In this document: positions 984 through 33,300 of the stretch, one piece after another
Numbering within the stretch: position 1 is the stretch's first letter
Layout of the letters: each line of letters starts with the position of its first letter
IMG/VR virus record: IMGVR_UViG_3300032164_000003
Location: 1 to 64,000 of that record
Source of the DNA: a virus
Length of the DNA: 64,000 nt
Direction: 5' to 3' (one strand)
Notes under the pieces: model-generated
Told to the model about the DNA's origin: nothing
Databases searched by the model: none
Seen by the model: only the letters and a program-made list of their open reading frames with translations
Program-made: the position numbers and the translations under genes

Positions 984-2123
984 TTATTCCACTGCCTTGA
1001 AGTTATAGACCGGCTTCATTATGAAATCGATAGTCACGCTCTCACCAATGGCGTCAATGATCTTCTGCTTGTCTTTGTACGCCATCGGGGACTCATCTAG
1101 CGTGTCTTTGCTGACACAGGACGACCACACACCAACCATCTCTTTTTGGAACTCGTCTAGCTGCAATTCCCGCTTCGCACGACTTCTGGAATAGATTCTC
1201 CCAGCACCATGGGGAGCAGACATATTCCATTTTGCACTACCCTTGCCGGTTCCTATAATAGTCCCGTCACGCATGTTCAAAGGAATTATTACCCTTTCTC
1301 CTTCATGTGCTGAAATGGCACCCTTGCGGAGAATGTTGTCGGAGAAGTTTATGTAGTTGTGAACTGATTTCACACTTTCCAATTTGGAATATTCTTGTTT
1401 GAAAAACTCCTCAATGATTTGTTTGACCATGAAGTATCTATTCATCAGTGCATATCTTTGTGCTACCTTCATGTCAGTCAAGTATTCTTTGCCACCCTTG
1501 TCTATAGGCAAGAATTCAAGATCTTTATATGCGGCCCCTATAAACATTTCTCGCATAAGTTCTTTGGCGCGCTTCTGATGATATCCAGCTATGTCCAACC
1601 CAAATTTGCGACTTCCAGAATGGACGAGCAACCAAATGTTACCAGTTGCATCCTTGTCCAATTCTATAAAATGGTTTCCACCGCCCAATGTACCTATGGA
1701 CTTTAATGCTCTGGTACTATCAGAACCTATGTTGCAACAAATGTCAACGATCATTGCTGGTAATTCTTCGAGCAGATTAGTATCTATTTGTTGTTTATCA
1801 CTTCGTACGTGAAAACCGCTCGGAATGTTTTCGCGGATGAAGCCATCCAACTTCGCAAAGTCTACTTCTATTTGTCCAAGGTTGAACGCCTCAATTCCGC
1901 AGCCGATGTCAACACCTACTAAATTGGCGATTACATAATTATTCATCTTAGCTGTGTAGCCGATAACCGCCCCGGCTCCAGCATGGCAATCTGGCATGAT
2001 TGCGATGTATGTATTTCCAAATGCTGGATGATTCAGGAAACTGTAGATTTGAGCTACAGTTGTTTCGTCGATATCGTCAATCATGACATTAGCAGAATTA
2101 TATTTTCCTGTGTACGTTAACAT
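984..2123 (-). CDS. rtcB: RtcB family RNA ligase (tRNA repair)
   Basis: Motifs MPDCHAG, VGVDIGCG, GTLGGGNHFIE, HSGSR, HNYI, RKGA, SAPHGAGR, DESPMAYK. Confidence 0.95.
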   Translation of the reverse strand: MLTYTGKYNSANVMIDDIDETTVAQIYSFLNHPAFGNTYIAIMPDCHAGAGAVIGYTAKMNNYVIANLVGVDIGCGIEAFNLGQIEVDFAKLDGFIRENIPSGFHVRSDKQQIDTNLLEELPAMIVDICCNIGSDSTRALKSIGTLGGGNHFIELDKDATGNIWLLVHSGSRKFGLDIAGYHQKRAKELMREMFIGAAYKDLEFLPIDKGGKEYLTDMKVAQRYALMNRYFMVKQIIEEFFKQEYSKLESVKSVHNYINFSDNILRKGAISAHEGERVIIPLNMRDGTIIGTGKGSAKWNMSAPHGAGRIYSRSRAKRELQLDEFQKEMVGVWSSCVSKDTLDESPMAYKDKQKIIDAIGESVTIDFIMKPVYNFKAVE

Positions 2124-2339: not shown

Positions 2340-2411
2340 TGGAGGCTAAGGGAATCGAACCCTTATTTCCGGCTTGCAGGGCCAGCGTAATGCCCATTAT
2401 ACGAAGCCCCC
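2340..2411 (-). tRNA. tRNA-Ala(TGC)
   Basis: GGGGGCT/AGCCTCC-A with G3:U70 identity pair, anticodon loop CCTGCAA, T-loop TTCGATT. Confidence 0.92.
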
Positions 2412-2583: not shown

Positions 2584-4155
2584 TTACAACTCGATCTCGT
2601 CCACGATCCCGACAAGCTGCTCGGAATCCAGATCATTGGTGGCGAACCGGTTGATTACGTCGAACACCTGATCGCTCCATCCACCAACGTTCAGCACGTC
2701 CTTGCGGTGCTTCGGTGCCTGTGTGTCCTTGCCAGCTTGAATGTCAATCAGCACCATCTTGGCGTTCTTGTTGCGCGACTTCAGCTGCTCCCACTCATGC
2801 ATCAATGGTGTGCAGCCCCGGCTCAAATAGTAAGAGCCTGCCCAGGACTCGTTGTCGCTAACAATGATGATTAGGTCTACCTCGGCGCGCTCACGGTTGA
2901 GTAGTCGCAATGGCGCAGAGCACTCCGTAGATCCACCGCCGATGCTTCCAAGCAGTGCCGCGTTGGTCATGATGCTGTCACGCGGATTGACCCGTACGTT
3001 GACCACATTTCCCTCGAACGGGATCACTCGCGACATTGGGTTCTTGCGCAAGTACACTGCGCTTACCAAGGCTGCCACGTCGATGCAGTTTACCTTGGTG
3101 GTTGCCGTGCCCCGGTCACCCGTGATCGGGCTGGACATAGATCCGGAAACATCTGGACAGATTACGACGTTTCCGTCAAACACGTCCACGTTCTCACAGG
3201 CAATTTCCATAGCCTCTTGCAGCGCATCCGAAATCTCAGCCGGCGCATCCTCGATGTTCTTGTACGCTGCTAGCAATTGGTACGGGAACGCACGTGCGCG
3301 CTGGATCTGATCACGATCCTGCAAGCGTTCCGCCACCAGCTTGACCATCTTCTTTCCGTCCCTGCCGTCGAACACACCATGCCGCTTGAACGTGTTGATG
3401 TTCATGCGGGTCATCATCCACTTTGCGTTCTTGGCAATCTCCTTCCAAGCTGCAGTATCCAATTCCAGCGAGGTTAGGTACTGGAAGGAAACATCCGGGA
3501 CTTCCTCTGCCTTGCCTGCCTTGAACAACTCGTACTCCTTGACGATCTTCGGCAGGTAGCGCTTGTTGTACTCCTTGCCCAGGATGTACGCGTAGAAGGC
3601 ATTGCGGGTCTTATCCTTCGGCTTCGGGTGAACCATCTTCACCAGATCGGCCAAAGATACACCAGCGCCTACGGCATCGCGGAATAGCTGCTCGTCAGTG
3701 CGACCGTCAAGCCAGCCACGGATGATGTTACGAGGAGCCGTACCGAAGCTCTTACGCCCGGTTACACCGCTGCGGATGATCTGAGCAAACTTGCGCAGCT
3801 GTGTGCCGTTGTCGATGGTCTTGGGAAAGATCGCCCTTACTAGATCGATCTCACCACGACCAACTAGGTGCGCCGTCAAGAAGGCCGGCATGTCCTTCAT
3901 ATAGCCCTTGTCACGGCTATACACTGCCACCTTGGCGATGAACTCTGGATCGACCTTGGTGCATAGATCTTGGGTATCGTTCATTAGTTCATCTGCGTGT
4001 GCATAGAAGATGTCATTGAAACAGTTGGTGACGGCATACTGAATGAGCGCATGCTTATCACTCATCTTGTATGCCAACCCACCCGCGCGGTTGCGAGTGT
4101 CCGACTTCGGGGCCATCTTACCACGGGTTGTTGAGAATAGACGACGGTTTACCAT
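2584..4155 (-). CDS. rsr: Ro60/Rsr-like TROVE domain RNA-binding protein with C-terminal vWA domain
   Basis: N-terminal NRAGGLAY, DPEFIAKVAVYSR..GYMKDMPA, GRKSFG, MVHPKP, ARAFPYQLLAAY; vWA MIDAS DVSGSM, SDNESW, GGWSDQVF. Probable start M7 (4155) after a GGAGG SD. Confidence 0.93.
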   Translation of the reverse strand: MVNRRLFSTTRGKMAPKSDTRNRAGGLAYKMSDKHALIQYAVTNCFNDIFYAHADELMNDTQDLCTKVDPEFIAKVAVYSRDKGYMKDMPAFLTAHLVGRGEIDLVRAIFPKTIDNGTQLRKFAQIIRSGVTGRKSFGTAPRNIIRGWLDGRTDEQLFRDAVGAGVSLADLVKMVHPKPKDKTRNAFYAYILGKEYNKRYLPKIVKEYELFKAGKAEEVPDVSFQYLTSLELDTAAWKEIAKNAKWMMTRMNINTFKRHGVFDGRDGKKMVKLVAERLQDRDQIQRARAFPYQLLAAYKNIEDAPAEISDALQEAMEIACENVDVFDGNVVICPDVSGSMSSPITGDRGTATTKVNCIDVAALVSAVYLRKNPMSRVIPFEGNVVNVRVNPRDSIMTNAALLGSIGGGSTECSAPLRLLNRERAEVDLIIIVSDNESWAGSYYLSRGCTPLMHEWEQLKSRNKNAKMVLIDIQAGKDTQAPKHRKDVLNVGGWSDQVFDVINRFATNDLDSEQLVGIVDEIEL

Positions 4156-4236
4156 AACTTCCCTCCGATGCATTTCCCTTTCGGGAACGATTATGCCGAG
4201 AGTACAACGAAAGTTTGAACGCTCTCAGCGATAAAA
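4156..4236 (-). promoter_or_regulatory. structured 5' leader of rsr with a circularly permuted Ro-site-like hairpin next to the SD
   Basis: GCTGAGAG/CTCTCGGC hairpin, then TCG-TTCCC-GAAA-GGGAA-ATGC, then GGAGG SD and ATG. Confidence 0.45.
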
Positions 4237-4244
4237 CTATAAAA

Positions 4245-4310
4245 TGGGGTGACAAGGTTTTGTAGAGATTTAGTCGGTTAATGATGTAATCCCTACAAGC
4301 ATTCACCCCA
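4245..4310 (-). ncRNA. Y-RNA-like unit 7 (minimal, scaffold only)
   Basis: GGGGTGA-ATGC-TTGTAGGGATTACAT...AATCTCTACAA-AACCTTG-TCACCCC. Confidence 0.7.
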
Positions 4311-4314
4311 ATAC

Positions 4315-4446
4315 TTTTGGGCAACGAAATTTGGAAAGACTTTTTACCGGAGTCCTGGCGTTAGACGACAGCCCGATGGTCGGGCTGGCAGGAGTTAAAC
4401 CTACGTTACCGGTCCTGTATGTAGTCCTTCCGGCATTTGCCCAAAA
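4315..4446 (-). ncRNA. Y-RNA-like unit 6 (YrlA-type, permuted tRNA domain)
   Basis: GGGCAA-ATGC-CGGAAGGACTACAT scaffold; ACCGG/CCGGT stem, T-arm GTAGG-TTTAACT-CCTGC, closed acceptor CAGCCCGA-CCA-TCGGGCTG, D-arm GTC..GAC. Confidence 0.8.
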
Positions 4447-4457
4447 CTGAAAATAAA

Positions 4458-4593
4458 TTGGCCAACGAGTATTGGAAAGATTTTTGTCTGCCGCTCTACC
4501 TACTGAGCTATACTACCATACAAAGTATGGCAGCAGCAGGACTCGAACCTGCGACCAACAGTTTATAATGTAATCCTTCCTGCATTTGGCCAA
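4458..4593 (-). ncRNA. Y-RNA-like unit 5 (YrlA-type, permuted tRNA domain)
   Basis: GGCCAA-ATGC-AGGAAGGATTACAT scaffold; T-arm GCAGG-TTCGAGT-CCTGC, closed acceptor TGCTGCCATAC-TTT-GTATGGTAGTA, D-arm GCTC-AGTAGGTA-GAGC. Confidence 0.85.
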
Positions 4594-4610
4594 AGCGAAA
4601 ACTTAGAAAA

Positions 4611-4766
4611 TTTGGACAACGAGAGTTGCGAGACGGTCAACCCGGGTATGACGTCCGGGCGCTCTACCTTAGAGCATCTCGCCCAATCAGAGATGGAATC
4701 CCGGTTGTGGGCGAGATAGGAATCGAACCTATTATGATGATGTAGTCCCGCTGGCATTTGTCCAAA
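4611..4766 (-). ncRNA. Y-RNA-like unit 4 (permuted tRNA retaining an anticodon-like arm)
   Basis: GGACAA-ATGC-CAGCGGGACTACAT scaffold; T-arm ATAGG-TTCGATT-CCTAT, acceptor CTCGCCCA/TGGGCGAG, D-arm GCTC-TAAGGTA-GAGC, arm CCCGG-ACGTCATAC-CCGGG. Confidence 0.8.
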
Positions 4767-4776
4767 ACTAAACTAC

Positions 4777-4894
4777 TTTACCCGACGAAAGGTGGAGAGA
4801 CTATTTTAAGCGTGCTACCGTTACACTAATTATACGGAGTTGAACCGTTCCTCCTCTTTATTAGAGATGTAATCCCTCTGGGCATTCGGGTAAA
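4777..4894 (-). ncRNA. Y-RNA-like unit 3 (T-arm + D-arm only)
   Basis: ACCCGA-ATGC-CCAGAGGGATTACAT scaffold; ACGG-TTCAACT-CCGT and GTG-TAACGGTAG-CAC with almost no acceptor stem. Confidence 0.75.
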
Positions 4895-4906
4895 ACGAAA
4901 ATTAGA

Positions 4907-4995
4907 TTGCCCAACGAAATTTGTCGAGACGTTGGACCACCCCCCGAGGGTGGTCATCTTTATCAGAGATGTAATCCCGACTGGCATTTGGGCAA
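4907..4995 (-). ncRNA. Y-RNA-like unit 2 (single GC-rich hairpin insert)
   Basis: GCCCAA-ATGC-CAGTCGGGATTACAT...GACCACCC/GGGTGGTC...GTCTCGAC-AAATTTCG-TTGGGC. Confidence 0.72.
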
Positions 4996-4999
4996 ATAG

Positions 5000-5063
5000 T
5001 TACCCGACAAGAGTAGAAGAGACATTTATCACATAAGATGTAGTCTCTTCAGCATTCGGGTAA
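5000..5063 (-). ncRNA. Y-RNA-like unit 1 (minimal, scaffold only)
   Basis: ACCCGA-ATGC-TGAAGAGACTACAT...GTCTCTTC-TACTCTTG-TCGGGT. Confidence 0.7.
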
Positions 5064-5088: not shown

Positions 5089-5120
5089 GATGCTACTAAC
5101 AGTATACTACAAGTTCATAG

Positions 5121-5193
5121 TCGAGAGGGGGAGATTCGAACTCCCAACCTGATGGCCCCAAACCACCCGCTCCGCCAGTTGAGCTACCCCTCG
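5121..5193 (-). tRNA. tRNA-Pro(TGG)
   Basis: CGAGGGG/CCTCTCG-A, D-arm GCTC..GAGC, anticodon loop TTTGGGG, T-loop TTCGAAT. Confidence 0.9.
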
Positions 5194-5196
5194 ATA

Positions 5197-5270
5197 TCGG
5201 GGAAGTCGGCTTTGATCCGACGGCCTCCTGGTCCCGAACCAGGCGCTCTACCAGACTGAGCTATTCCCCG
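5197..5270 (-). tRNA. tRNA-Pro(CGG), atypical T-loop ATCAAAG
   Basis: CGGGGAA/TTCCCCG-A, CCTGG-TTCGGGA-CCAGG, T-arm GTCGG-ATCAAAG-CCGAC. Confidence 0.88.
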
Positions 5271-5273
5271 GTA

Positions 5274-5346
5274 TAGGCCCAAGTGGGTTTGAACCACTTA
5301 CCTAGCGGTTATCAGCCGCTCGCTCTACCAAGTGAGCTATGGGCCT
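5274..5346 (-). tRNA. tRNA-Ile(GAT)
   Basis: AGGCCCA/TGGGCCT-A, AGCGG-CTGATAA-CCGCT, T-loop TTCAAAC. Confidence 0.93.
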
Positions 5347-5351
5347 AAAAC

Positions 5352-5500
5352 TGGGGTTTGGTTGTGGGAAGCGCATCGCGTCTCCGCTCACGAGTTGACA
5401 AAGCATCTCGTGCAACCCTTACGGCCACCGACCCCAAAGGCCATATCAATCCTCGATCAGTTGGATCGAGGACGCGTGTTCCATATTGACTTGCCGCTCC
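5352..5500 (-). ncRNA. candidate structured ncRNA of unknown family
   Basis: Stems TGGGGT/ACCCCA, CACGAG/CTCGTG and TCCTCGATC/GATCGAGGA, between a boxA-like motif and tRNA-Ile. Confidence 0.35.
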
Positions 5501-5514
5501 GATTGTCAAAGAAC
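5501..5514 (-). promoter_or_regulatory. boxA-like element GTTCTTTGACAATC
   Basis: Exact repeat of 5691-5704; resembles the rrn boxA antitermination consensus. Confidence 0.55.
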
Positions 5515-5524
5515 CCAGAAGCTA

Positions 5525-5593
5525 TAGCGGGGGTCGGATTCGAACCGACCGCCCGAGGCGTATGAGGCCCCAGTCTGCCCGAGCAGCCCCGCA
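5525..5593 (-). tRNA. tRNA-Met(CAT), initiator-like with reduced D-arm
   Basis: 1:72 mismatch (T/T) above GCGGGG/CCCCGC, A73, GGGGC-CTCATAC-GCCTC, T-arm GTCGG-TTCGAAT-CCGAC; D region only CTGC-TCGG-GCAG. Confidence 0.75.
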
Positions 5594-6174: not shown

Positions 6175-6202
6175 ATTATACTTCTGAAACATGCGTTGTC
6201 AA
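6175..6202 (-). promoter_or_regulatory. consensus sigma70 promoter TTGACA-N16-TATAAT
   Basis: Minus strand CCTTGACAACGCATGTTTCAGAAGTATAAT, with a T-tract upstream. Confidence 0.8.
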
Positions 6203-6580: not shown

Positions 6581-9500
6581 CTAGGAAATGTAAACTAAAC
6601 ATTCGTACTTCTCAAGCTCCTCAAATTTATACCAAGTCATTGTCAGCATGGAATTGGCAATTGCTACGCCCGGCATCATTGGATCTTCGTGTGTGGACTT
6701 GAATTCCAAATAAATTGTACGGCGTCCTGAACCTTGCGTAAATGGGAATGCATCAACTACTTCTCCTGGTACAATACTAAAAGAATCAAGAATTTCGAAA
6801 GCGACAGTTAGTGCTTGGCCGGGTTCATCGAAGCGCCCATTCCCATCTAGACCAGCACCAGACAGTTTTTCATTTATCTTTTCCCGCGTCTTTGGATCTA
6901 ACCTATTGGTCTTTTGTGCAATCATCGTCTGCGGCATCGGGCTGTCTTCTTGCACTTCCGTGACTCTATTAAATGCTTCTTCCATATCTTTAGGTACTGG
7001 CTCTCTCGGACCGCCCTTTTTCATTTCTTCATCAACGTGTGTCCAGAAATACCCGGGGACAGGATATGTACAGTTCTGGCATGGTGTGTCTCGCCAATAG
7101 TCTACGCGCTGCATGCTTTTGCATTCTGGGCATAGCGTTATGAATGCTCTTCCCCTACGGACAAATTCATTTGCAGCTTTTTCCATTTGTGCAAGCCGTT
7201 CGTAGTAATCTGCCATTTCCTTAAGATGCGCCCAGGCGATCTTTGCAGCCGCTTCCAGATCGTCTCCGATTACATCTGTCTCTGGGTCACTAGATCCGTG
7301 CTCTTGTTCTACTGTGATTCCCTTAGCTAAAGATTCCGGGGAGAATTCTACTTCTTCCCAGTTGATCCCTATCTTAGTTCCAATCTCCTTAGCCTCTTCT
7401 GCGGTGATTTCCGTTTCGCTGTGCTCGTGAGGGTCCATGGGGTTACCCCCCGCACGCAACGGAACGCCTATACCAACTTCTCTGGCGTAGTCCTCCATTA
7501 GTTCGCGCACATCGTATGGATCCATGTGTAATTGAATCGCAAGCTCTTCTAGATCCGATTCCGAAGGATTGCGGTGTTCCAATAACCACTCTTCGGCCTC
7601 TTCCAGGGTTGGAAGCCGTTGTTGTGTCGGAGCCGGAGTTTCTTCATAATCTGGATTTACCGGGGTAGAATATTGTCCAGTTCCTTCTGCTGGTTCTTGG
7701 TTGAGTGCCGTCTTTTCAGATGCCACTGCTGGCCGCATTGCATATGGTTGATCTTGTACCTCAATAGGAATCTGGTCGCTGGGCATCATAGAACTAAGTT
7801 CTTGCCGGATCAAGTTGGCGTCCTGCGAATTGTCAAAGCGGATCTCATCACCGATCAATCTATAGGAGCCGGCAAACTGTCCACCACTATACAACTCATT
7901 TACCAGGGCGGCTACATCTCTAGAATCAATGTATGGATAGTCGCCAATACTGATACTGTCCGCAGGCATAAATGGAGCTACTGCAGCGATAATCTCATCG
8001 ACCTTCTTGCTGGGATGCCCCAATAGGGGAAGTTCCTTTAGAAGATCAGCAAGCAATTCTGGGTCGCTAATGAATGGAAGAATGTCCATACCGTCCAGTA
8101 CGGTTAATACCTCCATTACAACATCATTGTCTGGCTCTTCATCGTCCATTGGATTTCTGCGGTCCGGATGCTCAGCCTTACCCTCTGCCAGCCCTTTTCC
8201 TACATCTGAATACGGGCCATCTCCAGGATTTTTACCAGGAGTACCGTCGTCAAATAATGAGGCCGGCTTATTTATAAGTGCACTGGCCATCTTGATCCCT
8301 CCAAGCATACGGATAGCCGTCTTTACTCTTGCTTCCTGCAAAGTCTTTGAGGAACGTGCCAGCCATTCTTTATTTTGTGACACGTCGCGTATGGCGAATA
8401 GCCACGAAGAAGAGAGTGCAAATCGATCCATGCTACCATTTGCACACAATAATTTGGATCCCATCTCTTTGATTATGGCAGCAGCTGCCGTTTTTGCGTC
8501 TGGGTAAACAACGTGCCCAATGGGAGTTTTTGAACTGTACCACTGGACACGAACTTTACCATCTTTCTGATCTGACATCTCCGGGAGAATCGCCGCATAC
8601 AAATCCACGCCGATCCCTTTATATTCTGTCCCGATTTTTGCAACACCAAAAATTGCAGATTCACCGTCCAGCGGCGTTTCCTCCGAAGAAACCTTATTAA
8701 GTTGCCTCATTGGTTTCCCCGGTTTCTGAATGAATTGCTGTTGAATAGTTCTATCCTCTACTGGAGAGCCTTGCTCACTCTGTGTAGAGGGTGTACTTTG
8801 CGTAGATGGTGCACTAGGAGACACAGGTGTCGGTGTAGAGTTGTCAGTAGTGGGCGCACCGGGAGACATCGGAGGTTGCGGAGTAGTGCTTGAGGGATTC
8901 TTTACTTGATCCTCAAACTGTTTTACTATCTCCTCTGATATACCCATATCTTTAAGTAGCTGGGTAATTTCCGGAATGTCACTAACGTTCATTTGCGCAG
9001 TGTTATACACGCGTACGTCTCCCTCATACGGACCGGTGTATTGCTCTGTACTGGGTCCGGTGCTCAAGTTTAGCTCTGTCCAGGCGTACTTCTTTCCGCA
9101 GGATGCACAAACGATGTCTTTACCATGCTCACCGGCTTGCATTCCATTTTCATTACCACAGTGTGGGCATGTGGAAGATCCTCCGTGCATCATTCCGCCC
9201 TCTGGAACCATGTCCGTATTTGTTTCATCCAGAGGTGAGAACTTAGTGTAATTTGGCCTGGCCTCTTCTACTTCTGCTGGGCCTTGCTGCTTGTACGGAA
9301 ACGCGCGCTTATTAGTTGCGTCTTTCATTTGCAGTGTCTCTGCGACGTCTGACACTTCTTCTTTGTCAACGCCGCTTTTAAAGATTCTCTTTAGCTTCTT
9401 GAGAAGATCTATGTACTTGTACTTTTCGAGCATCTTATACCGCACGTTTCCCGGTGCCTTGTGCCTGTCATCTGCCGGTGCGTTTCGGTAGGATTCGTCA

Positions 9501-10648
9501 CGGTCTTCTTTTATTTGTTCGTACTCTTGGACTAGCTCTCCCAGGATGCGATTAATTTCTTGCAGCTTTCCCTCCATCTTTTGCATGAGCCGGTCTGGAT
9601 TCCGAACTGCAGAAACAGCCTCCTTAATAAGTTCATAATCTACTGTGTACGTTTTCGTTTCCTGAATCAATTTGTCCAGGCGAGTCATTGTCTCAATAGT
9701 TTCTTGGCGCTCTTGTCCAAAGATCTGATCTGGATCAAACGATTCATCGTAAAGCTCTCCACTTTGTACCATCTGTCCTTGCTGAATGCTATAAACCGGA
9801 TCACGGTCTGTGATCCCAAGTGGAGATTGCCCTAACTTTGTTTGTTCTCCCTGTATAACAATTGTAGCATTGAACGGATGCTCTGTCTCTCCAAGCTTGA
9901 TGTCGTGAATAAGGTCTATCGTTATTTCGTAGAGTTTATCTCCAGTGATTCCTGGATAAACACTTTGAACGACTTCCGGATTCAATAGGAGCCTAGTATC
10001 CACATCGGTTTTCGAGTTGTACTGATTTGTAAGGATCGATCCGTATATGAATACATCTATAATTGCCTCTGCTGGAAGATGCAAGTCATCGAGGAAAGAT
10101 CCTACAATATCTTCTATCGCCGTTAAGATCTCTGGTTGAAGCTTTAGCTGATCTGCAGAAACGTTCCAAATAGACGGATCTAACTCGTCCCTTGGATAAT
10201 CAATGATTGAAGCGTGTGTCTTTCCCATTATGGTGTGTCCACCGGATTCTTCCTGAACACGGAGCCCATAGGTATTTTCTAAGTGCCCAATCAAATCTTT
10301 ATTTACTACATCTAAAGACAATACGGCGTCTGGATCCATGTCCTTAATTTCATAATTAAACTTATCAACGGCAATCTTGATCAATGCGGCCCCAAGTCCT
10401 TGTCTACGATAGTTACTGTGTACTGCAATATCAAATGAGTATTTACCATCTAAGTAATTATCCATCAAAGCAGACACAAGCACGCCACCGCCCCCACCAG
10501 CAAAATCTGGATCTACATGACCACAAACAAAGTCTTTATCGGACAAGAATGTGATGCCGGATTGCTGTGCCAATGCCCACGGATCTGCATTGACTAGATT
10601 TGCATCGTCAAGTTCCTCTAAGCCATAATATAGTTCCAGATCTGCCAT
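6581..10648 (-). CDS. large modular protein: GNAT acetyltransferase + Pol-beta-type nucleotidyltransferase + two Zn ribbons + DUF5661-like domain; probably virion-associated
   Basis: IAVHSNYRRQGLGAAL (acetyl-CoA motif); IYGSILTNQYNSKTDVD (GS..DxD); CPHCG..CASCG; GITVEQEH..AKIAWAHLKEMADYY; CPEC..CQNC. Start at M32 avoids overlap with the upstream gene. Confidence 0.75.
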   Translation of the reverse strand: MADLELYYGLEELDDANLVNADPWALAQQSGITFLSDKDFVCGHVDPDFAGGGGGVLVSALMDNYLDGKYSFDIAVHSNYRRQGLGAALIKIAVDKFNYEIKDMDPDAVLSLDVVNKDLIGHLENTYGLRVQEESGGHTIMGKTHASIIDYPRDELDPSIWNVSADQLKLQPEILTAIEDIVGSFLDDLHLPAEAIIDVFIYGSILTNQYNSKTDVDTRLLLNPEVVQSVYPGITGDKLYEITIDLIHDIKLGETEHPFNATIVIQGEQTKLGQSPLGITDRDPVYSIQQGQMVQSGELYDESFDPDQIFGQERQETIETMTRLDKLIQETKTYTVDYELIKEAVSAVRNPDRLMQKMEGKLQEINRILGELVQEYEQIKEDRDESYRNAPADDRHKAPGNVRYKMLEKYKYIDLLKKLKRIFKSGVDKEEVSDVAETLQMKDATNKRAFPYKQQGPAEVEEARPNYTKFSPLDETNTDMVPEGGMMHGGSSTCPHCGNENGMQAGEHGKDIVCASCGKKYAWTELNLSTGPSTEQYTGPYEGDVRVYNTAQMNVSDIPEITQLLKDMGISEEIVKQFEDQVKNPSSTTPQPPMSPGAPTTDNSTPTPVSPSAPSTQSTPSTQSEQGSPVEDRTIQQQFIQKPGKPMRQLNKVSSEETPLDGESAIFGVAKIGTEYKGIGVDLYAAILPEMSDQKDGKVRVQWYSSKTPIGHVVYPDAKTAAAAIIKEMGSKLLCANGSMDRFALSSSWLFAIRDVSQNKEWLARSSKTLQEARVKTAIRMLGGIKMASALINKPASLFDDGTPGKNPGDGPYSDVGKGLAEGKAEHPDRRNPMDDEEPDNDVVMEVLTVLDGMDILPFISDPELLADLLKELPLLGHPSKKVDEIIAAVAPFMPADSISIGDYPYIDSRDVAALVNELYSGGQFAGSYRLIGDEIRFDNSQDANLIRQELSSMMPSDQIPIEVQDQPYAMRPAVASEKTALNQEPAEGTGQYSTPVNPDYEETPAPTQQRLPTLEEAEEWLLEHRNPSESDLEELAIQLHMDPYDVRELMEDYAREVGIGVPLRAGGNPMDPHEHSETEITAEEAKEIGTKIGINWEEVEFSPESLAKGITVEQEHGSSDPETDVIGDDLEAAAKIAWAHLKEMADYYERLAQMEKAANEFVRRGRAFITLCPECKSMQRVDYWRDTPCQNCTYPVPGYFWTHVDEEMKKGGPREPVPKDMEEAFNRVTEVQEDSPMPQTMIAQKTNRLDPKTREKINEKLSGAGLDGNGRFDEPGQALTVAFEILDSFSIVPGEVVDAFPFTQGSGRRTIYLEFKSTHEDPMMPGVAIANSMLTMTWYKFEELEKYECLVYIS

Positions 10649-10655
10649 GTTGTAA

Positions 10656-10991
10656 TTACTCGCCCTTAACCTGCATGCGCGGAACAACGTACTTTTCCGG
10701 TGTAATGGCTGGTGCTGGAGGCTTGATACCGACTGTGCCATGCATTGTTGTGTACATTCCAGACTTCATCATGTCTATGTACGCTTCGAGCTTAGCAATC
10801 TTTATTGCCTGCTCATTAAACTTGCTTTCCAAGGAAGGGATCACTACATTGTCTAATTGGACAACTGTCTTCTTTATTTCACCACTTCCAATAACTGCTG
10901 TAACAATTACTCCAATAACTGCGAGTAATGCGGCAAAGTATGGTCCCAGTACCTTTAGGAATTCAATCTTGGTCTTCGTCTCGTCTGCCAT
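10656..10991 (-). CDS. membrane-anchored coiled-coil protein
   Basis: N-terminal hydrophobic helix YFAALLAVIGVIVTAVIG; GAGG SD. Confidence 0.65.
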   Translation of the reverse strand: MADETKTKIEFLKVLGPYFAALLAVIGVIVTAVIGSGEIKKTVVQLDNVVIPSLESKFNEQAIKIAKLEAYIDMMKSGMYTTMHGTVGIKPPAPAITPEKYVVPRMQVKGE

Positions 10992-28033: not shown

Positions 28034-28319
28034 CTAGCACCTTCTCTGCATCTCGCTCATTTTGCTGGCTTTGTACGGCATGTTTTATTCCTAAAAGTAT
28101 TTCCTTAATAACCGCATCAAGTTTTATTGCCCGTCGAATGTCTGTTTGCGTGGCAAGATACGCAGCCTTCGCTAAATTCTTATCGATCAGATCTGCATCC
28201 TCTTTCTTTATAGCGCCGTCTGTATCTTCTGCATATTGTGTTCCGAAACTTACCGAGGCTATATCACCGTTTGGAAACTTATGAGAAAAGGTTGCATCGA
28301 AATGTTTCTCAATCTTCAC
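28026..28319 (-). CDS. hypothetical protein
   Basis: 97-aa ORF coupled to both neighbours. Confidence 0.6.
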   Translation of the reverse strand: MKIEKHFDATFSHKFPNGDIASVSFGTQYAEDTDGAIKKEDADLIDKNLAKAAYLATQTDIRRAIKLDAVIKEILLGIKHAVQSQQNERDAEKVLDE

Positions 28320-30375
28320 TGGTTGCCCTTTCTATCTTTATATCGGCAATGATAGACTCGTAGGTGTCTCGGTTTTCTTTCAGCACTGTTATAGCCCCAA
28401 CCTTGCCCTTACCTAGCAAGTCACCCTTGTAATAATACTTCGTTCCTCGGAGTTCTACGATATCTTTTTCTTCGGCCATAGCAAGTAGTTCTGCTTCTTT
28501 ACTAAAGCCGCTGCCAAATATAAGGTCTGTTTGGATCACCTTGAATGGGGGAGCAAGTTTATTCTTTACGATCTTTACCTGAACGCGGTTTCCCACAATC
28601 TTTTCCTTTAGTTTCAGGCTTCCTATACGCCGAATGTCCACGCGAACACTGGCGTAGAACTTTAGCGCGTTGCCGCCGGATGTCGTTTCTGGATTGCCAA
28701 ACATTACTCCAATTTTGTGCCGTACTTGATTAATAAAGATGGCCAGCGTCCCAGTCCGCGCGACAGGTGTACTTATTTTACGCATGCCTTGGCCCATCAA
28801 CCTGGCCTGTGCGCCCATCTGGGCATCACCCATGTTTCCGTCAATCTCAGACTGTGGAGTGAGCGCGGACACAGAGTCAATGACCGCGACGTCGAACTTA
28901 CCAGAAGAAACAGCCATCTCAAAGATTTCTAGGGCCTGTTCCCCAGAGTCCGGCTGACTGATAACAAGCTTTGCCGGGTCTACCCCAATCTTCATGGCAA
29001 GATTCATATCTAATGCATGTTCTGCATCGATAAAGATAGCTTGTCCACCTGCTCTCTGCGCCTCCGCGATGCAATGGAGAGCTAGCGTAGTATTATGTGT
29101 GACTATAAAATCGTCTGTAATGTAAAGGTGGTCAGGATCGTCTATTAATATGCAGCTGGCTTCTTTTTTTCCAACTGGAATTATGTCTGTTATCCACCTA
29201 TTTAAGTAGTCACACTTTGCAGTACTTCTGTTATTAAGAAGTACATTTTTCTTCCTGGACAAGCGGAAGGGCATTAGATTATGGGGAAGCATGATTATAA
29301 TACGATACGCTCGCTTACCCGAAACACACGCCCCGGCTTTTATGTAATGTGTTTTCTTTGTGGCTACATTTACTTTACCGCCTAAACTGCGTACGATATG
29401 TGTTACACCATCTTTTAACCATGGGCTGGTAGTAATGTACTCTAGCGATTGATGCGCCTTGCAAATGTGCCCATCAGTGTCAAGGAGCCCCTGTAATACT
29501 GCAAGGCGATCTTCTACTGAGGAGTACAAATAACAATCTGGTATAAACTTAACTGGGGATGTATGATTGTGTAAGTTTAATTCCTCTAGTATATTTCTTA
29601 GTGGTGCCTTTTCGTGCGATCTTGTTTTTTTTGATATACTGTAATCATACTTAGACACCTGGGTTACTTTTTGATTAGTGCTCATTGCATAATCTACTAT
29701 GGCGTCCACAATTTCTGCATCTGTGGTGCTCATTCTGATTGTAGCATTTCTAAAACAACCATCACCAAGTAGCAAGCCAAGTATATATGGATCTAATGGC
29801 AACTCCTTTTTCGGAAAATTTATAGGTGACACCATTGGAATATAGTATTTAAATCTGTCGGTTAACTTAAAATCGATCATTAGTTCGGTAAGCGGTAGAA
29901 CGCGCCACAAATCATTTTCTTTATCATCCCAAGTTTGAACGGCCCACAGGTGATCTCTACAGCATTCTGTGCTGCTTCCATCAGAGAAAACAACTTTGAA
30001 AATTTCTTTTTCTCCCTGCGGAAATACACCAAGTACTACTGATGGCTTTCCGCTAGAAGAAAATACGATGCTTCCTGGAAACAGGTCCCTTATAGTTTTC
30101 CACCCACGCGGAGTTAGCACCTTGGAATCTAGCGGTTGCGCTTTTCCACCCCCCTCAGGTCCGTATATTTCTACGATCCTGCCTCGCGGGAACCCGCCGA
30201 TTCCTAGGGCCTCGTCAACCCAAAACGAACCGGTAGATATTACATCCACTCTCTCTGTGGACATATCATCCATTTTACGAACGCATGCTTTACCATGCTT
30301 CTTTTGAATCTCGTACAGGATTTCATCGATGGACTTATCTGTGAGATCTGCCTTTGGTACTCTCTTTTTTGCCAC
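28309..30375 (-). CDS. recA: RecA recombinase with intein in the P-loop
   Basis: GGFPRGRIVEIYGPEGGGK|TTLAL, FIDAEHALD, QPDSGEQ, IDSV, QARLMGQ, FINQ, ETTSGGNALKFYASVR; GTG start after AAGGAG. Confidence 0.95.
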   Translation of the reverse strand: MAKKRVPKADLTDKSIDEILYEIQKKHGKACVRKMDDMSTERVDVISTGSFWVDEALGIGGFPRGRIVEIYGPEGGGKAQPLDSKVLTPRGWKTIRDLFPGSIVFSSSGKPSVVLGVFPQGEKEIFKVVFSDGSSTECCRDHLWAVQTWDDKENDLWRVLPLTELMIDFKLTDRFKYYIPMVSPINFPKKELPLDPYILGLLLGDGCFRNATIRMSTTDAEIVDAIVDYAMSTNQKVTQVSKYDYSISKKTRSHEKAPLRNILEELNLHNHTSPVKFIPDCYLYSSVEDRLAVLQGLLDTDGHICKAHQSLEYITTSPWLKDGVTHIVRSLGGKVNVATKKTHYIKAGACVSGKRAYRIIIMLPHNLMPFRLSRKKNVLLNNRSTAKCDYLNRWITDIIPVGKKEASCILIDDPDHLYITDDFIVTHNTTLALHCIAEAQRAGGQAIFIDAEHALDMNLAMKIGVDPAKLVISQPDSGEQALEIFEMAVSSGKFDVAVIDSVSALTPQSEIDGNMGDAQMGAQARLMGQGMRKISTPVARTGTLAIFINQVRHKIGVMFGNPETTSGGNALKFYASVRVDIRRIGSLKLKEKIVGNRVQVKIVKNKLAPPFKVIQTDLIFGSGFSKEAELLAMAEEKDIVELRGTKYYYKGDLLGKGKVGAITVLKENRDTYESIIADIKIERATSED
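29092..30141 (-). mobile_element. class-3-type intein (350 aa; Ala1, W-C-T triad) with LAGLIDADG endonuclease
   Basis: Starts AQPLDS; DHLW (block B Trp); ASCILID (block F Cys); IVTHN (block G Thr) followed by T; LGLLLGDG and LQGLLDTDG. Confidence 0.88.
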
Positions 30376-30388
30376 GGTGCGCTCCTTT

Positions 30389-33300
30389 TTATAATTCAAC
30401 GACTTCCAAAGTTCCCAGTGTGGTTCCAATCTCGAAGTCCAGTTTCATCTTGCACAAAAACCCAGGAAAAGCAGTCGCGACAACTTTATTCATAACATTG
30501 ATCAAAGATTCTTCCTGTCCCTTTTTTACTTGAATCACATTAGCGTCGTGAATGGTTGTCATAGGATAACAAGTTATACCTTCTTTCTTTGCTAACCGAA
30601 GGGTCATTACCATGTAGTGATTATTCATATCAGAGGCGAGCCCTTGGATTGGACTATTCCGAGCTTGGCGCTCTGCTTCTGCCTGCACCATCTTGTCATA
30701 ACTGTCGATCTCTGGTAGCCTTCTAATACGACCCATCCATGTTTTAACTGTCTTGTATTCATGCGCCTGCTGCACTTGCTTATCCAACCAAATTGAGGCG
30801 TCAGGATACTTTTGGAAGAATAGATCGCGCACTGCTTCTGCCTCGTCCTCAGTTATCCCGTATTGTTTAGCAATGGCCTTTACACCACGCCCATACATTA
30901 ATCCAAACACGCAATCGAGTGTATAAAAACCATTGGCTACCATAACCTTATCACCTGTTGTAACAAAGTCGTACACAGGCAATTTACCAATATGTTTTAT
31001 CGCAGTTATTTTAACAGAATAAATATTATTTTTTACCAATGTGTCTATTGTACTGTTAATCCCAAAACAATACTTCCTTAGAAAAGAATGTGTTAATTTC
31101 TTTCTGATTTTAATTCCATACCGTACATCACAATTAGTATGGTGTGTCCGATAAAATTGGTTAACATTATGCAAAAACTTCCTTCCACGATTCTGTCTAG
31201 GGTATGCCCATCCTTTTGGTACATGCACACCAACCGTGTCCACCAACAGTGCCAATTCGTCAGTATTGGTGATTTGTATATTGTAAAATACGCGTCCATG
31301 GTTTGGGTGTTCAATAGCTATTTTGGGATATATGCCAAACCCACGTAACAATAAACACAGGGCGTCACATGTGTCTCGGCAAACAGTTCCAGCGCATGCC
31401 CTGTCCCATTTAAACGTGCCGTCCCCCAAAAAGTATCCTTGTAAAAAGGCTTTTTGAACATCCGTTGGAGACATAATAATCTTGTCTGGAAATGTTTTAA
31501 ATCCTTTCTTATTTCCTGGAGTCATTCCAAGGTACTTCAAAAATTCAACAAACTCTAAGGAGGTTACAGCCCAAGTAACAAGGCCATTACGTTTGTCAAT
31601 ATATCGCTTAACTCTGGCACCAAATATTTTTTTGCTCAAAACATCAATCATGTTCACAAATTTGCCCTTTTGACACCACCGTACATAAACATGTCTAGTC
31701 CTGGTATTTATAGAGCCCTCTGCCAAAATAAAACCCAACAGGTACCCTAATTCCGGAGTTAGTACCCAGCGCCTAAAGATAGGCTTGAAAGATGTTCTTC
31801 TGTCGCCTACAAAACTCCAAGTAATGTACTTCTTTTGTTTGTTCCGTGGTGTGCAAGATAATATGTAGTCCCCATTGGATAGTTCAGATAATTTCTTAGT
31901 GATCACATTACCATGTACATCGATTACATAAAATGGGTGATTGGCTGTACATTTTATGCTGCCACATTCAGTGTCCACCAAATAAACATTGTCTAGTTTA
32001 GTAACTGTTTTCAGAACAGTTTGGCGACGATTAAGATGATCTAAAACAATATCGCCCTTGTTAATACTGTTTATCTGTCTTAGACCGACACTTGTAGGTA
32101 TCCAGGTATCCCCCGAAACACAATTTTTCGCGGCGGTGCGTTGTTCCTTTGTGACAGCATCCTCCGTTGTGCCAAATATCTCTGCAGCAATCTTGCGATG
32201 GATGTCCAAGCCTGCTTCAATATCTGCGATCATCTGTGCATCTTCAGAATAGTGCGCCCAGCACCGGAACTCTGCTTGGGCAAGGTCTGACTTTACTATG
32301 GTCATCCCCGGATCTGCCAAGAAGCATTCTTTCAAATCAGCTGCGTTTCTAGGGATGTTTTGGAAGTTGGGGTTTTGACTAGCGATACGACCAGTTACAG
32401 TGCGGTGCTGCATATACCCGGGGTGCACGCGTCCATCAAACTTTGACTTACTGTAAATAGACTTAATGTAAGTTGAAAGGAACTTGGTCAATTGCCGGTA
32501 TTCTATAATCTGCTTTGCCAGATTTACATTATCTTCGCTAGCAAGGAGCTTTAATGTTTCTTCGTTAGTGCTATAGTCCCCTTTTCCAGTTTTATTTTCT
32601 GTTTCAAGCCCCATCATGTCAAAGAATATCTCTCGTAATTGCTTAGTAGACCCCGGGTTGAAGACCCAGTCATCTTCTTTTATTCTAATCTTAGTGTAAT
32701 CTGAAGCACAGGGAAAGCGCCCGCGCAATGTTTTAGATTGTTCCCACTTCGCCTCTAACATCTTGGAGGCGCGCATGTAGCGGATCTTCTGGTATTTACC
32801 TACTTCTTTATTCTCCATTATCGCAGCTAGGGCATTCCGAACCTTTGCAGTATATTTTTTACCAAGCTTCTTTAGCTTTTTGCGATCAACGAGTATGCCG
32901 TGATACTCCATCTTTAGCAGAACCCATAATGTAGGGATCGTGTATGTGTTATAGAAATCTAGAAGGTTTTGCCGGAGCAATTCTTTTCTGAATTTTATAA
33001 ACAAGCGGAACGTTGCGTCTCCGTCGCACTGGGCGTACGAGGAAAGTATAGAATAAGGAATGCGACTATATGTATAGTCATCCTTATTTATTTTATTCTT
33101 CTTCATGTCCTCTTTTTTGAAGTCTTCTAAATCTACCCAATACTCTCCCATGTCTAGATAGCGTAGAGTTAGCGTATCCAGTGACTTGTCTCGAAGATTT
33201 TCATTGAGTAAAGCAATCGCAGGTAGACAGTCAAAGATCGGATTCTTTACTCTTATCCCATTCGCGAGCAAAACCTGTATATCAAACTTAAGGTTATGTC

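What the first reader, a model, noticed from the sequence alone, without database searches (positions are those of the whole stretch)
4245..5063. Tandem array of seven Y-RNA-like genes: one constant Ro-binding scaffold, seven different inserts, directly upstream of a phage Ro60/Rsr gene
Seen: this 820-nt stretch without a credible CDS splits into seven units of 64-156 nt separated by 4-17-nt A/T-rich spacers. On the minus strand each reads [stem]-(G/A)A-ATGC-[stem2]-GA(T/C)TACAT-insert-[stem2']-...T(C/T)G-T(C/T)-[stem']. Both stems differ in sequence between units but keep their pairing. Terminal stem: ACCCGA/TCGGGT, GCCCAA/TTGGGC, GGACAA/TTGTCC, GGCCAA/TTGGCC, GGGCAA/TTGCCC, GGGTGA/TCACCC. 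Upper stem: GAAGAGAC/GTCTCTTC, GTCGGGAT/GTCTCGAC, GCGGGAC/GTCTCGC, GGAAGGAT/ATCTTTCC, TGTAGGGAT/ATCTCTACA. The unpaired ATGC and TACAT are invariant. Known: bacterial Y RNAs (YrlA/YrlB) lie next to rsr, bind it through a stem formed by their 5' and 3' ends, and usually number one or two per locus (e.g. Salmonella rsr-yrlBA-rtcBA). Inference: the phage encodes a library of adaptor RNAs that load one Ro ring with different payloads, such as decoys for host anticodon nucleases or tethers for different partner proteins. I am not aware of an array this large and varied, but could not search to confirm that.
Basis: partly seen in the sequence, partly recalled or inferred. Interest (0 to 1): 0.93.

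Follow-up and report, generated by a model that had tools for sequence, protein, structure and literature searches.

The report
Seven Y-RNA genes beside phage Ro60
A large uncultured phage carries seven different small RNA genes in a row that share the handle used by bacterial Y RNAs to bind the Ro60 protein encoded next door; such rows of 3 to 12 turn out to be common in related phages and bacteria, though I found no paper describing them.

Summary
On the minus strand of 4245-5063 lie exactly seven units (64-154 nt). Each has an 8-bp terminal stem, an invariant AAUGC internal loop, a 7-9-bp upper stem, GAYUACAU, and then a different insert. The motif occurs 7 times against 0.6 expected, and nowhere else in the 91-kb record.

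They belong to the YrlA/YrlB class of bacterial Y RNAs:
- Rfam YrlA matches three units full length, just below its cut-off. Units of relatives' arrays pass it.
- The handle covaries strongly in more than 260 independent units from relatives.
- Four inserts are permuted-tRNA modules and three are short hairpins.

The array sits between a tRNA cluster and a canonical Ro60/Rsr gene (2584-4155), with RtcB downstream.

The 'payload library' function is plausible but untested, and the anticodon-nuclease decoy idea has little support.

The array is not exceptional. Relatives of this Ro60 in viral contigs, metagenome contigs and bacterial genomes carry up to 9-12 units, always on the Ro strand.

I found no paper describing arrays above about four. 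This scan has noted similar multi-RNA arrays beside Ro60-like genes on other DNA. Verdict: a real multi-gene variant of a known system, of moderate interest.

The parts
6175..6202 (-). Promoter-like site, TTGACA-16-TATAAT (12 of 12), upstream of a 141-aa ORF, the tRNA cluster and the array
   Evidence: No minus-strand terminator-like site lies between it and 2850. Consensus match only.
5120..5593 (-). tRNA-Met, tRNA-Ile, tRNA-Pro(cgg), tRNA-Pro(tgg), immediately 5' of the array
5000..5063 (-). U1, short Y RNA (YrlB-like), handle CCCGA-AUGC, one small hairpin as insert
   Evidence: 63.3 bits; YrlB 23.7 bits; z -6.6
4907..4995 (-). U2, short Y RNA; insert is a small hairpin plus an 8-bp G+C hairpin with a UCGG loop
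   Evidence: 65.2 bits; z -3.8
4778..4893 (-). U3, Y RNA with V hairpin, T-arm-like and D-arm-like hairpins but no acceptor stem
   Evidence: 61.6 bits; z -1.7
4612..4765 (-). U4, Y RNA whose insert is a whole permuted tRNA: T arm, 7-bp acceptor stem closed by a 24-nt loop, D arm and a closed anticodon-like arm (loop ACGUCAUAC). The Ro handle leaves from the variable-loop position.
   Evidence: YrlA 40.7 bits; 54.1 bits; ARAGORN cloverleaf with anticodon TCA after un-permuting; z -4.1
4458..4593 (-). U5, canonical YrlA-type Y RNA: T arm, 11-bp acceptor-like stem with UUU loop, D arm
   Evidence: YrlA 64.2 bits, cut-off 69, E 3.7e-14, full length; z -4.3
4317..4444 (-). U6, YrlA-type Y RNA: 5-bp anticodon-stem equivalent, 4-nt variable loop, T arm, 7-bp acceptor stem closed by ACCA+U (encoded CCA), D arm
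   Evidence: YrlA 45.7 bits; z -4.4
4245..4310 (-). U7, short Y RNA (YrlB-like)
   Evidence: YrlB 26.9 bits; 57.5 bits; z -4.8
4170..4187 (-). Ro60 leader hairpin UUCCC-GAAA-GGGAA followed by AUGC, 3 nt before the Shine-Dalgarno GGAGGG (4166-4161). Possibly a mini copy of the Ro handle.
   Evidence: Conserved in the closest relative L317. Enrichment across relatives is weak.
2584..4155 (-). Ro60/Rsr protein gene (TROVE + Ro60 vWA), 523 aa from the ATG with a Shine-Dalgarno sequence
2340..2411 (-). tRNA-Ala(tgc) between Ro60 and the RtcB unit
984..2123 (-). RtcB RNA ligase gene, preceded by a 65-aa ORF and a promoter-like site at 2314-2287
   Evidence: (224.7 bits)

Best explanation
The stretch is an array of seven Y RNA genes of the bacterial YrlA/YrlB class, carried by a large (about 180 kb) T4/Mx1-like phage. 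Shown: all seven share the handle that defines bacterial Y RNAs, namely a terminal stem formed by the 5' and 3' ends, an asymmetric AAUGC / UYG internal loop, an upper stem and GAYUACAU. That handle is under structural selection. The units lie on the same strand as, and directly 5' of, a canonical Ro60/Rsr gene. Four inserts are circularly permuted tRNA-like modules and three are short hairpins. Inferred: the array is transcribed with the flanking tRNA genes and Ro60 as one long precursor, from a promoter near 6200. Host tRNA-processing and A/U-directed endonucleases cut it into seven RNAs, and each RNA binds the phage Ro60 ring through the common handle. By analogy with published Y RNAs, the bound RNA gates the Ro60 cavity and its variable module ties Ro60 to a partner: PNPase in Deinococcus, Salmonella and Thermus phage phiLo, and an unknown tRNA-elbow binder for YrlA. 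Seven different modules would then give several differently equipped Ro60 particles during infection. These probably act on damaged or misfolded tRNA and rRNA together with the phage tRNA set and the RtcB ligase.
For: Motif 7 seen against 0.62 expected. Identical fold of all units with low z-scores. Rfam YrlA aligns end to end to U5, U6 and U4 (64.2, 45.7, 40.7 bits; E 4e-14 to 2e-7) and YrlB to U7 and U1. Units in relatives' arrays found with the same scaffold model pass the YrlA cut-off (L335 82.2, 72.8, 70.1; L465 78.2; L473 69.6). Covariation on units that exclude the window: 93.9% of cells paired against 60.3% shuffled and 30-57% slid, with 14 of 14 pairs showing compensatory changes in 111 units; 95.3% against 68.0% in 150 bacterial units. 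All 600 hits in 216 Ro60 loci are on the Ro60 strand. Ro60 identity. tRNA-like anatomy. In relatives, Y units abut tRNA genes within 0-3 nt (L278, Mx1), which fits joint processing. RtcB lies on the same strand within the flank in 17 of 136 related loci. Published support: phiLo Ro60 binds two upstream Y-like RNAs and host PNPase (PMC12135203); YrlA mimics tRNA (PMC4201824; bioRxiv 10.1101/312249).
Against: There is no expression, processing or binding data for this uncultured phage. No unit reaches an Rfam gathering score. Only 2 of 7 units keep the CGAA of the published Ro motif; four have CAAA and one UGAA, with the paired base changed to match. Nothing shows that the inserts bind different partners. 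There are no tRNA genes inside the array, so how neighbouring units are separated is unknown. The alignments used for covariation were fitted to the model, and the sequences are related to each other.
Confidence: 0.85

Rival explanations
1. Dosage or gating rather than a payload library: the units are redundant Ro60 regulators. Copy number only sets how much Ro60 is kept closed or stabilised, and insert differences are drift.
For: One relative (L262) has three 63-nt units with identical scores at a 142-nt period, preceded by a 69-nt unit at the same spacing, which looks like plain amplification. Insert sequences show almost no conservation between phages beyond the T and D arms. The closest relative, L317 (Ro60 71% identical), already has a different unit set.
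Against: In the window all seven inserts differ in kind (hairpin, double hairpin, headless, full and canonical permuted tRNA), and each is itself well folded. T arm plus 7-bp acceptor stems recur in 27 of 52 long units. Encoded NCCA follows the acceptor strand in 7 of those 27, where about 0.4 is expected. This points to selection on the modules.
Confidence: 0.25
2. The tRNA-like units act mainly as tRNA decoys or baits against host tRNA-targeting defence enzymes, with Ro60 only protecting or presenting them.
For: The context is phage tRNA genes plus the RtcB ligase. U4 carries a complete cloverleaf with an anticodon-like arm. U6 and several relatives encode NCCA at the acceptor end.
Against: Three units have no tRNA-like part. 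U3, U5 and U6 have no anticodon loop. U4's loop has G where U33 is universal, and its counterpart in L012 has a GCAA tetraloop. The same arrays occur in bacterial chromosomes next to rsr, where an anti-defence role is not obvious.
Confidence: 0.1
3. Decayed tRNA genes or processing spacers of the tRNA cluster with no function of their own.
For: They lie in a tRNA cluster and contain T- and D-arm-like hairpins. Weak tRNA-model hits of 18-19 bits.
Against: The non-tRNA handle is the most conserved part and covaries across hundreds of units. Three units have no tRNA-like element. ARAGORN calls no tRNA here. No unit resembles a tRNA of the window beyond generic loops.
Confidence: 0.03

Closest known systems
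Bacterial YrlA/YrlB Y RNAs with Rsr (Salmonella rsr-yrlBA-rtcBA, M. smegmatis; Chen et al. 2014, PMC4201824; Rfam RF02553, RF02565)
   Same: The handle layout is the same: terminal stem, AUGC loop, 7-bp upper stem, CUAC/UUAC. The tRNA-like module has the same T arm, closed acceptor stem, D arm order. The units sit on the same strand next to rsr, with RtcB nearby. Units of relatives' arrays pass the YrlA cut-off.
   Different: There are seven distinct genes in one row instead of one or two. The array is 5' of Ro60 and follows a phage tRNA cluster. Most units have CAAA rather than CGAA. One unit has a complete permuted tRNA whose handle exits at the variable loop, and one has an encoded CCA. No unit reaches the Rfam cut-offs.
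Thermus phage phiLo Ro60 with Yrl1 and Yrl2 (PMC12135203, 2025)
   Same: A phage-encoded Ro60 with Y-like RNAs just upstream of its gene. Binding to Ro60 and to host PNPase was shown there. The window's Ro60 matches the phiLo structure 9KOP at E 5.9e-15.
   Different: phiLo has two simple stem-bulge-stem RNAs. Here there are seven, four with tRNA-like modules, and nothing has been tested biochemically.
Deinococcus radiodurans Rsr with Yrn1/Yrn2 (RYPER); vertebrate Ro60 with two to four Y RNAs
   Same: One Ro60 ring, several Y RNAs sharing a binding stem and differing in the effector module, encoded together.
   Different: Copy number is at most about four. The Yrn1 module differs in orientation and appears to have evolved independently (PMC4201824).
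Listeria phage CKA15: three abundant ncRNAs upstream of an Rsr-like gene (PMC12282133)
   Same: Several highly transcribed small RNA regions on the same strand within 2 kb of a phage Rsr-like gene, proposed there to be Y RNAs.
   Different: Their structure and handle were not defined in that paper. The protein is only a remote Rsr match. I did not compare sequences.

Membership tests
YrlA (Rfam RF02553) / bacterial Y RNA | Encoded within a few kb of rsr/Ro60, on the same strand | tested here: met
   The array ends 89 nt before the Ro60 start and lies on the same strand. All 600 hits in relatives are on the Ro60 strand.
YrlA (Rfam RF02553) / bacterial Y RNA | 5' and 3' ends pair into a stem carrying the conserved Ro-binding motif (GNCGAA-N0-1-G, 'CGAA') | tested here: inconclusive
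   The stem and AAUGC loop are present in all seven and covary. Literal CGAA occurs only in U1 and U3; four units have CAAA and one UGAA, with a compensating partner base.
YrlA (Rfam RF02553) / bacterial Y RNA | Effector module resembling tRNA: T arm, acceptor-like stem-loop, D arm | tested here: met
   Met for U4, U5 and U6, with every stem fully paired. U3 has T and D arms but no acceptor stem. U1, U2 and U7 lack the module, like YrlB.
YrlA (Rfam RF02553) / bacterial Y RNA | Score at or above Rfam's gathering cut-off (69 bits) | tested here: not met
   U5 64.2, U6 45.7, U4 40.7 bits, all full-length alignments. Units of relatives found by the same scaffold model do pass, at 69.6-82.2 bits.
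YrlA (Rfam RF02553) / bacterial Y RNA | Bound by Ro60/Rsr in cells or in vitro | not testable with these tools
   Needs RIP or EMSA.
YrlB (Rfam RF02565) | Score at or above the gathering cut-off (97 bits) | tested here: not met
   U7 26.9 and U1 23.7 bits; U2 gave no hit. They resemble YrlB only in being short Y RNAs with the common handle.
Ro60/Rsr protein | TROVE (HEAT-repeat ring) domain followed by the Ro60 vWA domain, about 500-540 aa | tested here: met
   PF25045 69.7 bits (cut-off 27.7) and PF05731 39 bits (cut-off 23). Full-length match to Rsr 2NVO at E 8.5e-24 and phiLo Ro60 9KOP at 5.9e-15.
tRNA (RF00005) | Contiguous cloverleaf recognised by tRNA models | tested here: not met
   Best tRNA-model hits in the array are 18-19 bits against a cut-off of 29, and ARAGORN finds none. 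Only after un-permuting U4 in a script does ARAGORN draw a cloverleaf.
rsr-yrl-rtcBA RNA repair operon | RtcB ligase (and RtcA cyclase, RtcR regulator) linked to rsr and the Y RNAs | tested here: inconclusive
   RtcB lies 461 nt downstream of the Ro60 stop codon, on the same strand. I did not search for RtcA or RtcR.

The most novel reading that the evidence does not exclude
Large phages, and the Acidobacteriota-type bacteria that share this Ro60 clade, run a combinatorial Ro60 system. One ring is programmed by 5-12 different Y RNAs whose permuted-tRNA modules are processed at the acceptor loop by RNase P. Some have encoded CCA and one has a full anticodon arm. They would then display true tRNA ends, so that each particle recognises, shields or decoys a different tRNA-directed enzyme during infection.
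Probability: 0.12. Interest if true: 0.8.

Novelty: new variant of a known kind. Interest (0 to 1): 0.55.

Why it matters
Y RNAs are usually described as one to four per genome, and what the tRNA-like module of YrlA binds is still unknown. This window and about 600 related units show that long, diversified Y RNA arrays are a regular feature of one widespread Ro60 clade in phages and bacteria. Standard Rfam annotation misses most of them: none of the seven here, and 3 of 9 in L335. The natural variety of modules on one constant handle is ready-made material for finding Y RNA partners. It may also help explain why phages pair Ro60 with tRNA genes and an RNA ligase. At least one GenBank phage (Mx1) annotates such an RNA as a protein gene.

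Tried and rejected
- Tandem Repeats Finder finds nothing, because the units are too unlike in sequence and length.
- blastn of the array against GenBank phages finds nothing.
- Two pattern scans of viral contigs with the 14-base motif returned mostly chance matches. Of the first 200 of their 237 stretches searched with the scaffold model (L218-L254 were not searched), only about six loci held real units.
- My regex plus stem screen was too permissive and I dropped it.
- I could not pair the window's units with orthologues in other phages. Local alignment of inserts finds only the T and D arms.
- I looked for donor tRNAs among the window's nine tRNAs and found none.
- R2 finds nothing in six GenBank Ro60 loci (actinophage, Vibrio phage, halovirus). 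Rfam YrlA gives 0-1 weak hits there, so the arrays belong to this Ro60 clade.
- An eighth unit is rejected. The 8-bp hairpin at 4229-4195 contains a handle-like AACUUUCGUUG, but the model gives no hit.
- The anticodon-nuclease decoy reading is rejected as the main explanation, for the reasons given under the rival explanations.
- The supplementary tables of Chen 2014 and the 2020 Annual Review were not available. I therefore could not learn the largest number of YrlAs per locus already tabulated there.

Full report
**Observation**

- The motif AATGC-N6-12-YTACAT occurs seven times in the window, all on the minus strand between 4284 and 5056. Dinucleotide shuffles give 0.62 expected, at most 3. 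It occurs nowhere else in the 91-kb viral record that holds the window.
- Unit limits are 5063-5000, 4995-4907, 4893-4778, 4765-4612, 4593-4458, 4444-4317 and 4310-4245. Spacers are 4-18 nt and 72-85% A+T.
- Folded alone, each unit gives the same architecture: an 8-bp terminal stem made by its two ends, an asymmetric internal loop (5' AAUGC+N, 3' about 8 nt ending UYG), a 7-9-bp upper stem, GAYUACAU, then a variable module.
- Folding z-scores are -3.8 to -6.6, except -1.7 for U3.
- The terminal stem is Watson-Crick in all 56 cells while its sequence changes.
- ORFs overlapping the array have no PHROG match. Tandem Repeats Finder sees nothing, as expected for units that share shape rather than sequence.

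**What the units are**

- With permissive thresholds, Rfam's YrlA model aligns end to end to U5 (64.2 bits, E 3.7e-14; cut-off 69), U6 (45.7) and U4 (40.7). YrlB aligns to U7 (26.9) and U1 (23.7). U2 and U3 get no hit.
- The handle matches the YrlA consensus piece for piece.
- A covariance model of the handle (R1, then R2 from 18 units) scores the seven units at 54-65 bits with filters off. The next best hit in the 64 kb scores 13 bits, so there is no eighth unit.
- The same model finds units in relatives, and some of those pass Rfam's own YrlA cut-off: three in L335 at 70-82 bits, L465 at 78.2, L473 at 69.6. The scaffold family is therefore the YrlA/YrlB family, and the window's members are divergent ones.

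**Covariation**

| Unit set | Cells paired | Shuffled | 3' partner slid by 1-3 | Pairs with compensatory change |
|---|---|---|---|---|
| 111 units from viral contigs (none from the window) | 93.9% | 60.3% | 30-57% | 14 of 14 |
| 150 units from bacterial genomes | 95.3% | 68.0% | 37-68% | 14 of 14 |
| First 18 units | 95.2% | 66.2% | not recorded | 12 of 14 |

These alignments are fitted to the model and the sequences are related, so the numbers are generous. The contrast with the slid controls is still large.

**The inserts**

- U1 and U7 carry one small hairpin.
- U2 carries a small hairpin and an 8-bp G+C hairpin with a UCGG loop.
- U3 has a V hairpin, a T-arm-like hairpin and a D-arm-like hairpin, but no acceptor stem.
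- U5 is a canonical YrlA module: T arm GCAGG/UUCGAGU/CCUGC, an 11-bp acceptor-like stem closed by UUU, and D arm GCUC/AGUAGGUA/GAGC.
- U6 is a clean permuted tRNA. It has a 5-bp anticodon-stem equivalent, a 4-nt variable loop, a T arm, and a 7-bp acceptor stem whose 3' strand is followed by ACCA and one U before the 5' strand, then a D arm.
- U4 is different. After the D arm it has its own closed 5-bp arm with loop ACGUCAUAC, so the Ro handle leaves the tRNA body at the variable-loop position. When I un-permuted it in a script, using five bases of its own linker as the variable loop, ARAGORN drew a cloverleaf with anticodon TCA. Two other linker choices gave nothing.
- L012:1392-1560 has the same topology as U4, but that arm ends in a GCAA tetraloop. 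I therefore do not read the loop as a conserved anticodon.
- Over 118 units (the window's seven plus 111), 52 are 95 nt or longer. Of those, 35 have a T arm and 27 have a T arm plus a 7-bp acceptor stem. Seven of the 27 have NCCA directly after the acceptor 3' strand, against about 0.4 expected.
- Published work shows that M. smegmatis YrlA, which has a 7-bp acceptor stem, is cut by RNase P and receives CCA (PMC4201824; bioRxiv 10.1101/312249). U4 and U6 are candidates for the same processing. This is inference.

**Context**

- On the minus strand the order is: a perfect sigma-70-like promoter (6202-6175), a 141-aa ORF, tRNA-Met, Ile, Pro, Pro, the seven units, a 71-nt leader, Ro60 (4155-2584), tRNA-Ala, a second promoter-like site (2314-2287), a 65-aa ORF, RtcB (2123-984), and more tRNAs.
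- No minus-strand terminator-like site lies between 6175 and 2850.
- The Ro60 ORF has both Pfam domains above cut-off. It matches D. radiodurans Rsr (2NVO, E 8.5e-24) and phiLo Ro60 (9KOP, 5.9e-15) over its full length.
- The rest of the window encodes ribonucleotide reductase, SbcC, a UvsX-like recombinase, DnaB and a large terminase. The record is classed as viral and about 50% complete.
- The nearest GenBank phage by Ro60 is Myxococcus phage Mx1 at 43% identity.

**Relatives**

| Collection | Loci searched | Ro60 identity | Hits | Largest arrays |
|---|---|---|---|---|
| Viral contigs | 56 | 41-53% | 111 (36 loci with at least one) | 12 (L278, a 183-kb contig), 6 (L292, L263) |
| Metagenome contigs | 80 | up to 71% | 191 | 9 contiguous (L335), 7 (L343, L357) |
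| Bacterial genomes | 80 | 49-55% | 298 (mean 3.7 per locus) | 11 (L467), 8 (L411, L473) |

- Every hit in all three collections is on the Ro60 strand.
- In viral contigs, counts within 6 kb of Ro60 were: 1 in 9 loci, 2 in 8, 3 in 7, 4 in 4, 5 in 5, 6 in 2 and 12 in 1.
- The bacterial loci are mostly Pyrinomonadaceae and other Acidobacteriota, with some Planctomycetota and Verrucomicrobiota. They include complete chromosomes.
- L411 has 19 tRNA genes, 8 units and Ro60, flanked by ordinary cellular genes.
- L465 has Ro60, three units and two ORFs in the order of rtcBA. I did not check those ORFs.
- Counts are lower bounds because flanks were limited and default filters were used.
- In relatives the units often abut tRNA genes within 0-3 nt (L278; Mx1 tRNA-Ile 45447-45518 followed by a unit at 45519-45626). 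One array (L301) encloses a tmRNA gene.
- RtcB lies within the flank in 17 of 136 viral and metagenome loci.
- Six GenBank Ro60 loci from actinophages, a Vibrio phage and a halovirus give 0-1 weak YrlA hits and no R2 hit.
- The window's seven units are therefore typical to high for its clade, not a record.

**How it most likely works**

Shown:
- a conserved, covarying Ro-type handle on seven different RNAs;
- co-orientation and adjacency with Ro60;
- tRNA-like modules in four units;
- placement within a tRNA and RtcB island.

Inferred:
- one precursor transcript is processed together with the tRNAs;
- each RNA binds the phage Ro60 through the handle;
- as for characterised Y RNAs, binding gates the ring and the module recruits a partner. 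Known partners are PNPase for Yrn1, YrlA and the phiLo Yrls, and an unknown factor at the tRNA elbow for YrlA (PMC4201824, PMC12135203, 10.1101/312249).

Seven modules would give several kinds of Ro60 particle. I put 0.85 on 'Ro60-binding Y RNAs', about 0.4 on 'different partners for different units', and about 0.1 on a decoy role.

**Novelty**

The kind is known: Rsr with YrlA/YrlB, phage Ro60 with two Yrls, and three candidate RNAs in Listeria phage CKA15 (PMC12282133). My searches found no paper describing arrays of more than about four Y RNAs, or their spread in this clade. I could not see the supplementary tables of Chen 2014. Earlier notes of this scan report comparable arrays next to more divergent Ro60-like proteins in other phages and giant viruses. 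Another reader flagged the permuted tRNAs of U5 and U6, which I confirm. I class this as a new variant of a known kind, of moderate interest.

**Limits**

- Model E-values are rough.
- I counted per-locus tallies for by hand from the tables.
- The viral or cellular status of many contigs is unverified.
- Nothing here tests expression or binding.

Noticed in passing
window 4170-4187 (-), and L317:1113-1130: The Ro60 leader holds a hairpin UUCCC-GAAA-GGGAA followed at once by AUGC, 3 nt before the Shine-Dalgarno sequence. Locally it looks like the Y RNA handle (stem strand plus AAUGC), so Ro60 might bind its own mRNA. It is conserved in the closest relative (loop GUAA). A hairpin plus (A)AUGC lies near the Ro60 start in 13 of 123 relatives against 3.1 expected, and several of the 13 are near-duplicates.
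   Followed up: partly
window 4685-4703 (-) compared with 4961-4979 (-): The acceptor-stem loop of U4 contains CGGGATTcCATCTCTGATt, which matches the handle-to-insert junction of U2 (CGGGATTACATCTCTGATA) at 17 of 19 bases. It looks like a relic of recombination between units.
   Followed up: no
L015:2020-2127 (Myxococcus phage Mx1, OR576727.2 45519-45626) and 45170-45296: Mx1 has two unannotated Y RNA-like genes inside its tRNA cluster, 11 kb from its Ro60 gene. One overlaps the 'hypothetical protein' WNM70101.1, which is probably not a protein gene.
   Followed up: partly
L262:10618-11106: Three 63-nt units with identical scores and G+C, preceded by a 69-nt unit, all at a 142-nt period. This looks like recent amplification, unlike the diversified array of the window.
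   Followed up: no
L301:9215-9623 (same contig as L013/L016): A phage tmRNA gene (tag AKNDKFVRGGFGLRAAA) sits between Y RNA units downstream of Ro60.
   Followed up: no
L411, L467, L473 (Pyrinomonadaceae genomes, e.g. OZ244725.1): Bacterial chromosomes carry blocks of 16-22 tRNA genes interleaved with 8-11 Y RNA units next to rsr. L411 is flanked by cellular-type genes (AIR synthase-like, PIN/DUF5615, GNAT). Whether these are islands of phage origin is open.
   Followed up: partly
window 4612-4765 (-): The tRNA body of U4, un-permuted in a script, is drawn by ARAGORN as a cloverleaf with anticodon TCA (it would read UGA). Rfam's tRNA-Sec model gives a weak 21.6-bit hit across U4 and U5. Position 33 of the loop is G, not U.
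   Followed up: partly
window 28309-30429 (-): A 706-aa ORF matches UvsX-like recombinase in three stretches. It also matches PHROG families named terminase, DnaC-like loader and primase over residues 88-454. This pattern would fit an intein or another inserted domain.
   Followed up: no
window 6581-10741 (-): A 1386-aa ORF just upstream of the RNA island has only a DUF5661 match (51 bits) and a weak GNAT hit.
   Followed up: no
L317:421-715: The closest relative appears to have a unit of about 295 nt with the usual terminal stem (UUGCGUCAA / UUGACGCAA) and AUGC. It has CAACUACCGU in place of GAYUACAU, and the model missed it. Divergent handles may mean the counts are too low.
   Followed up: no
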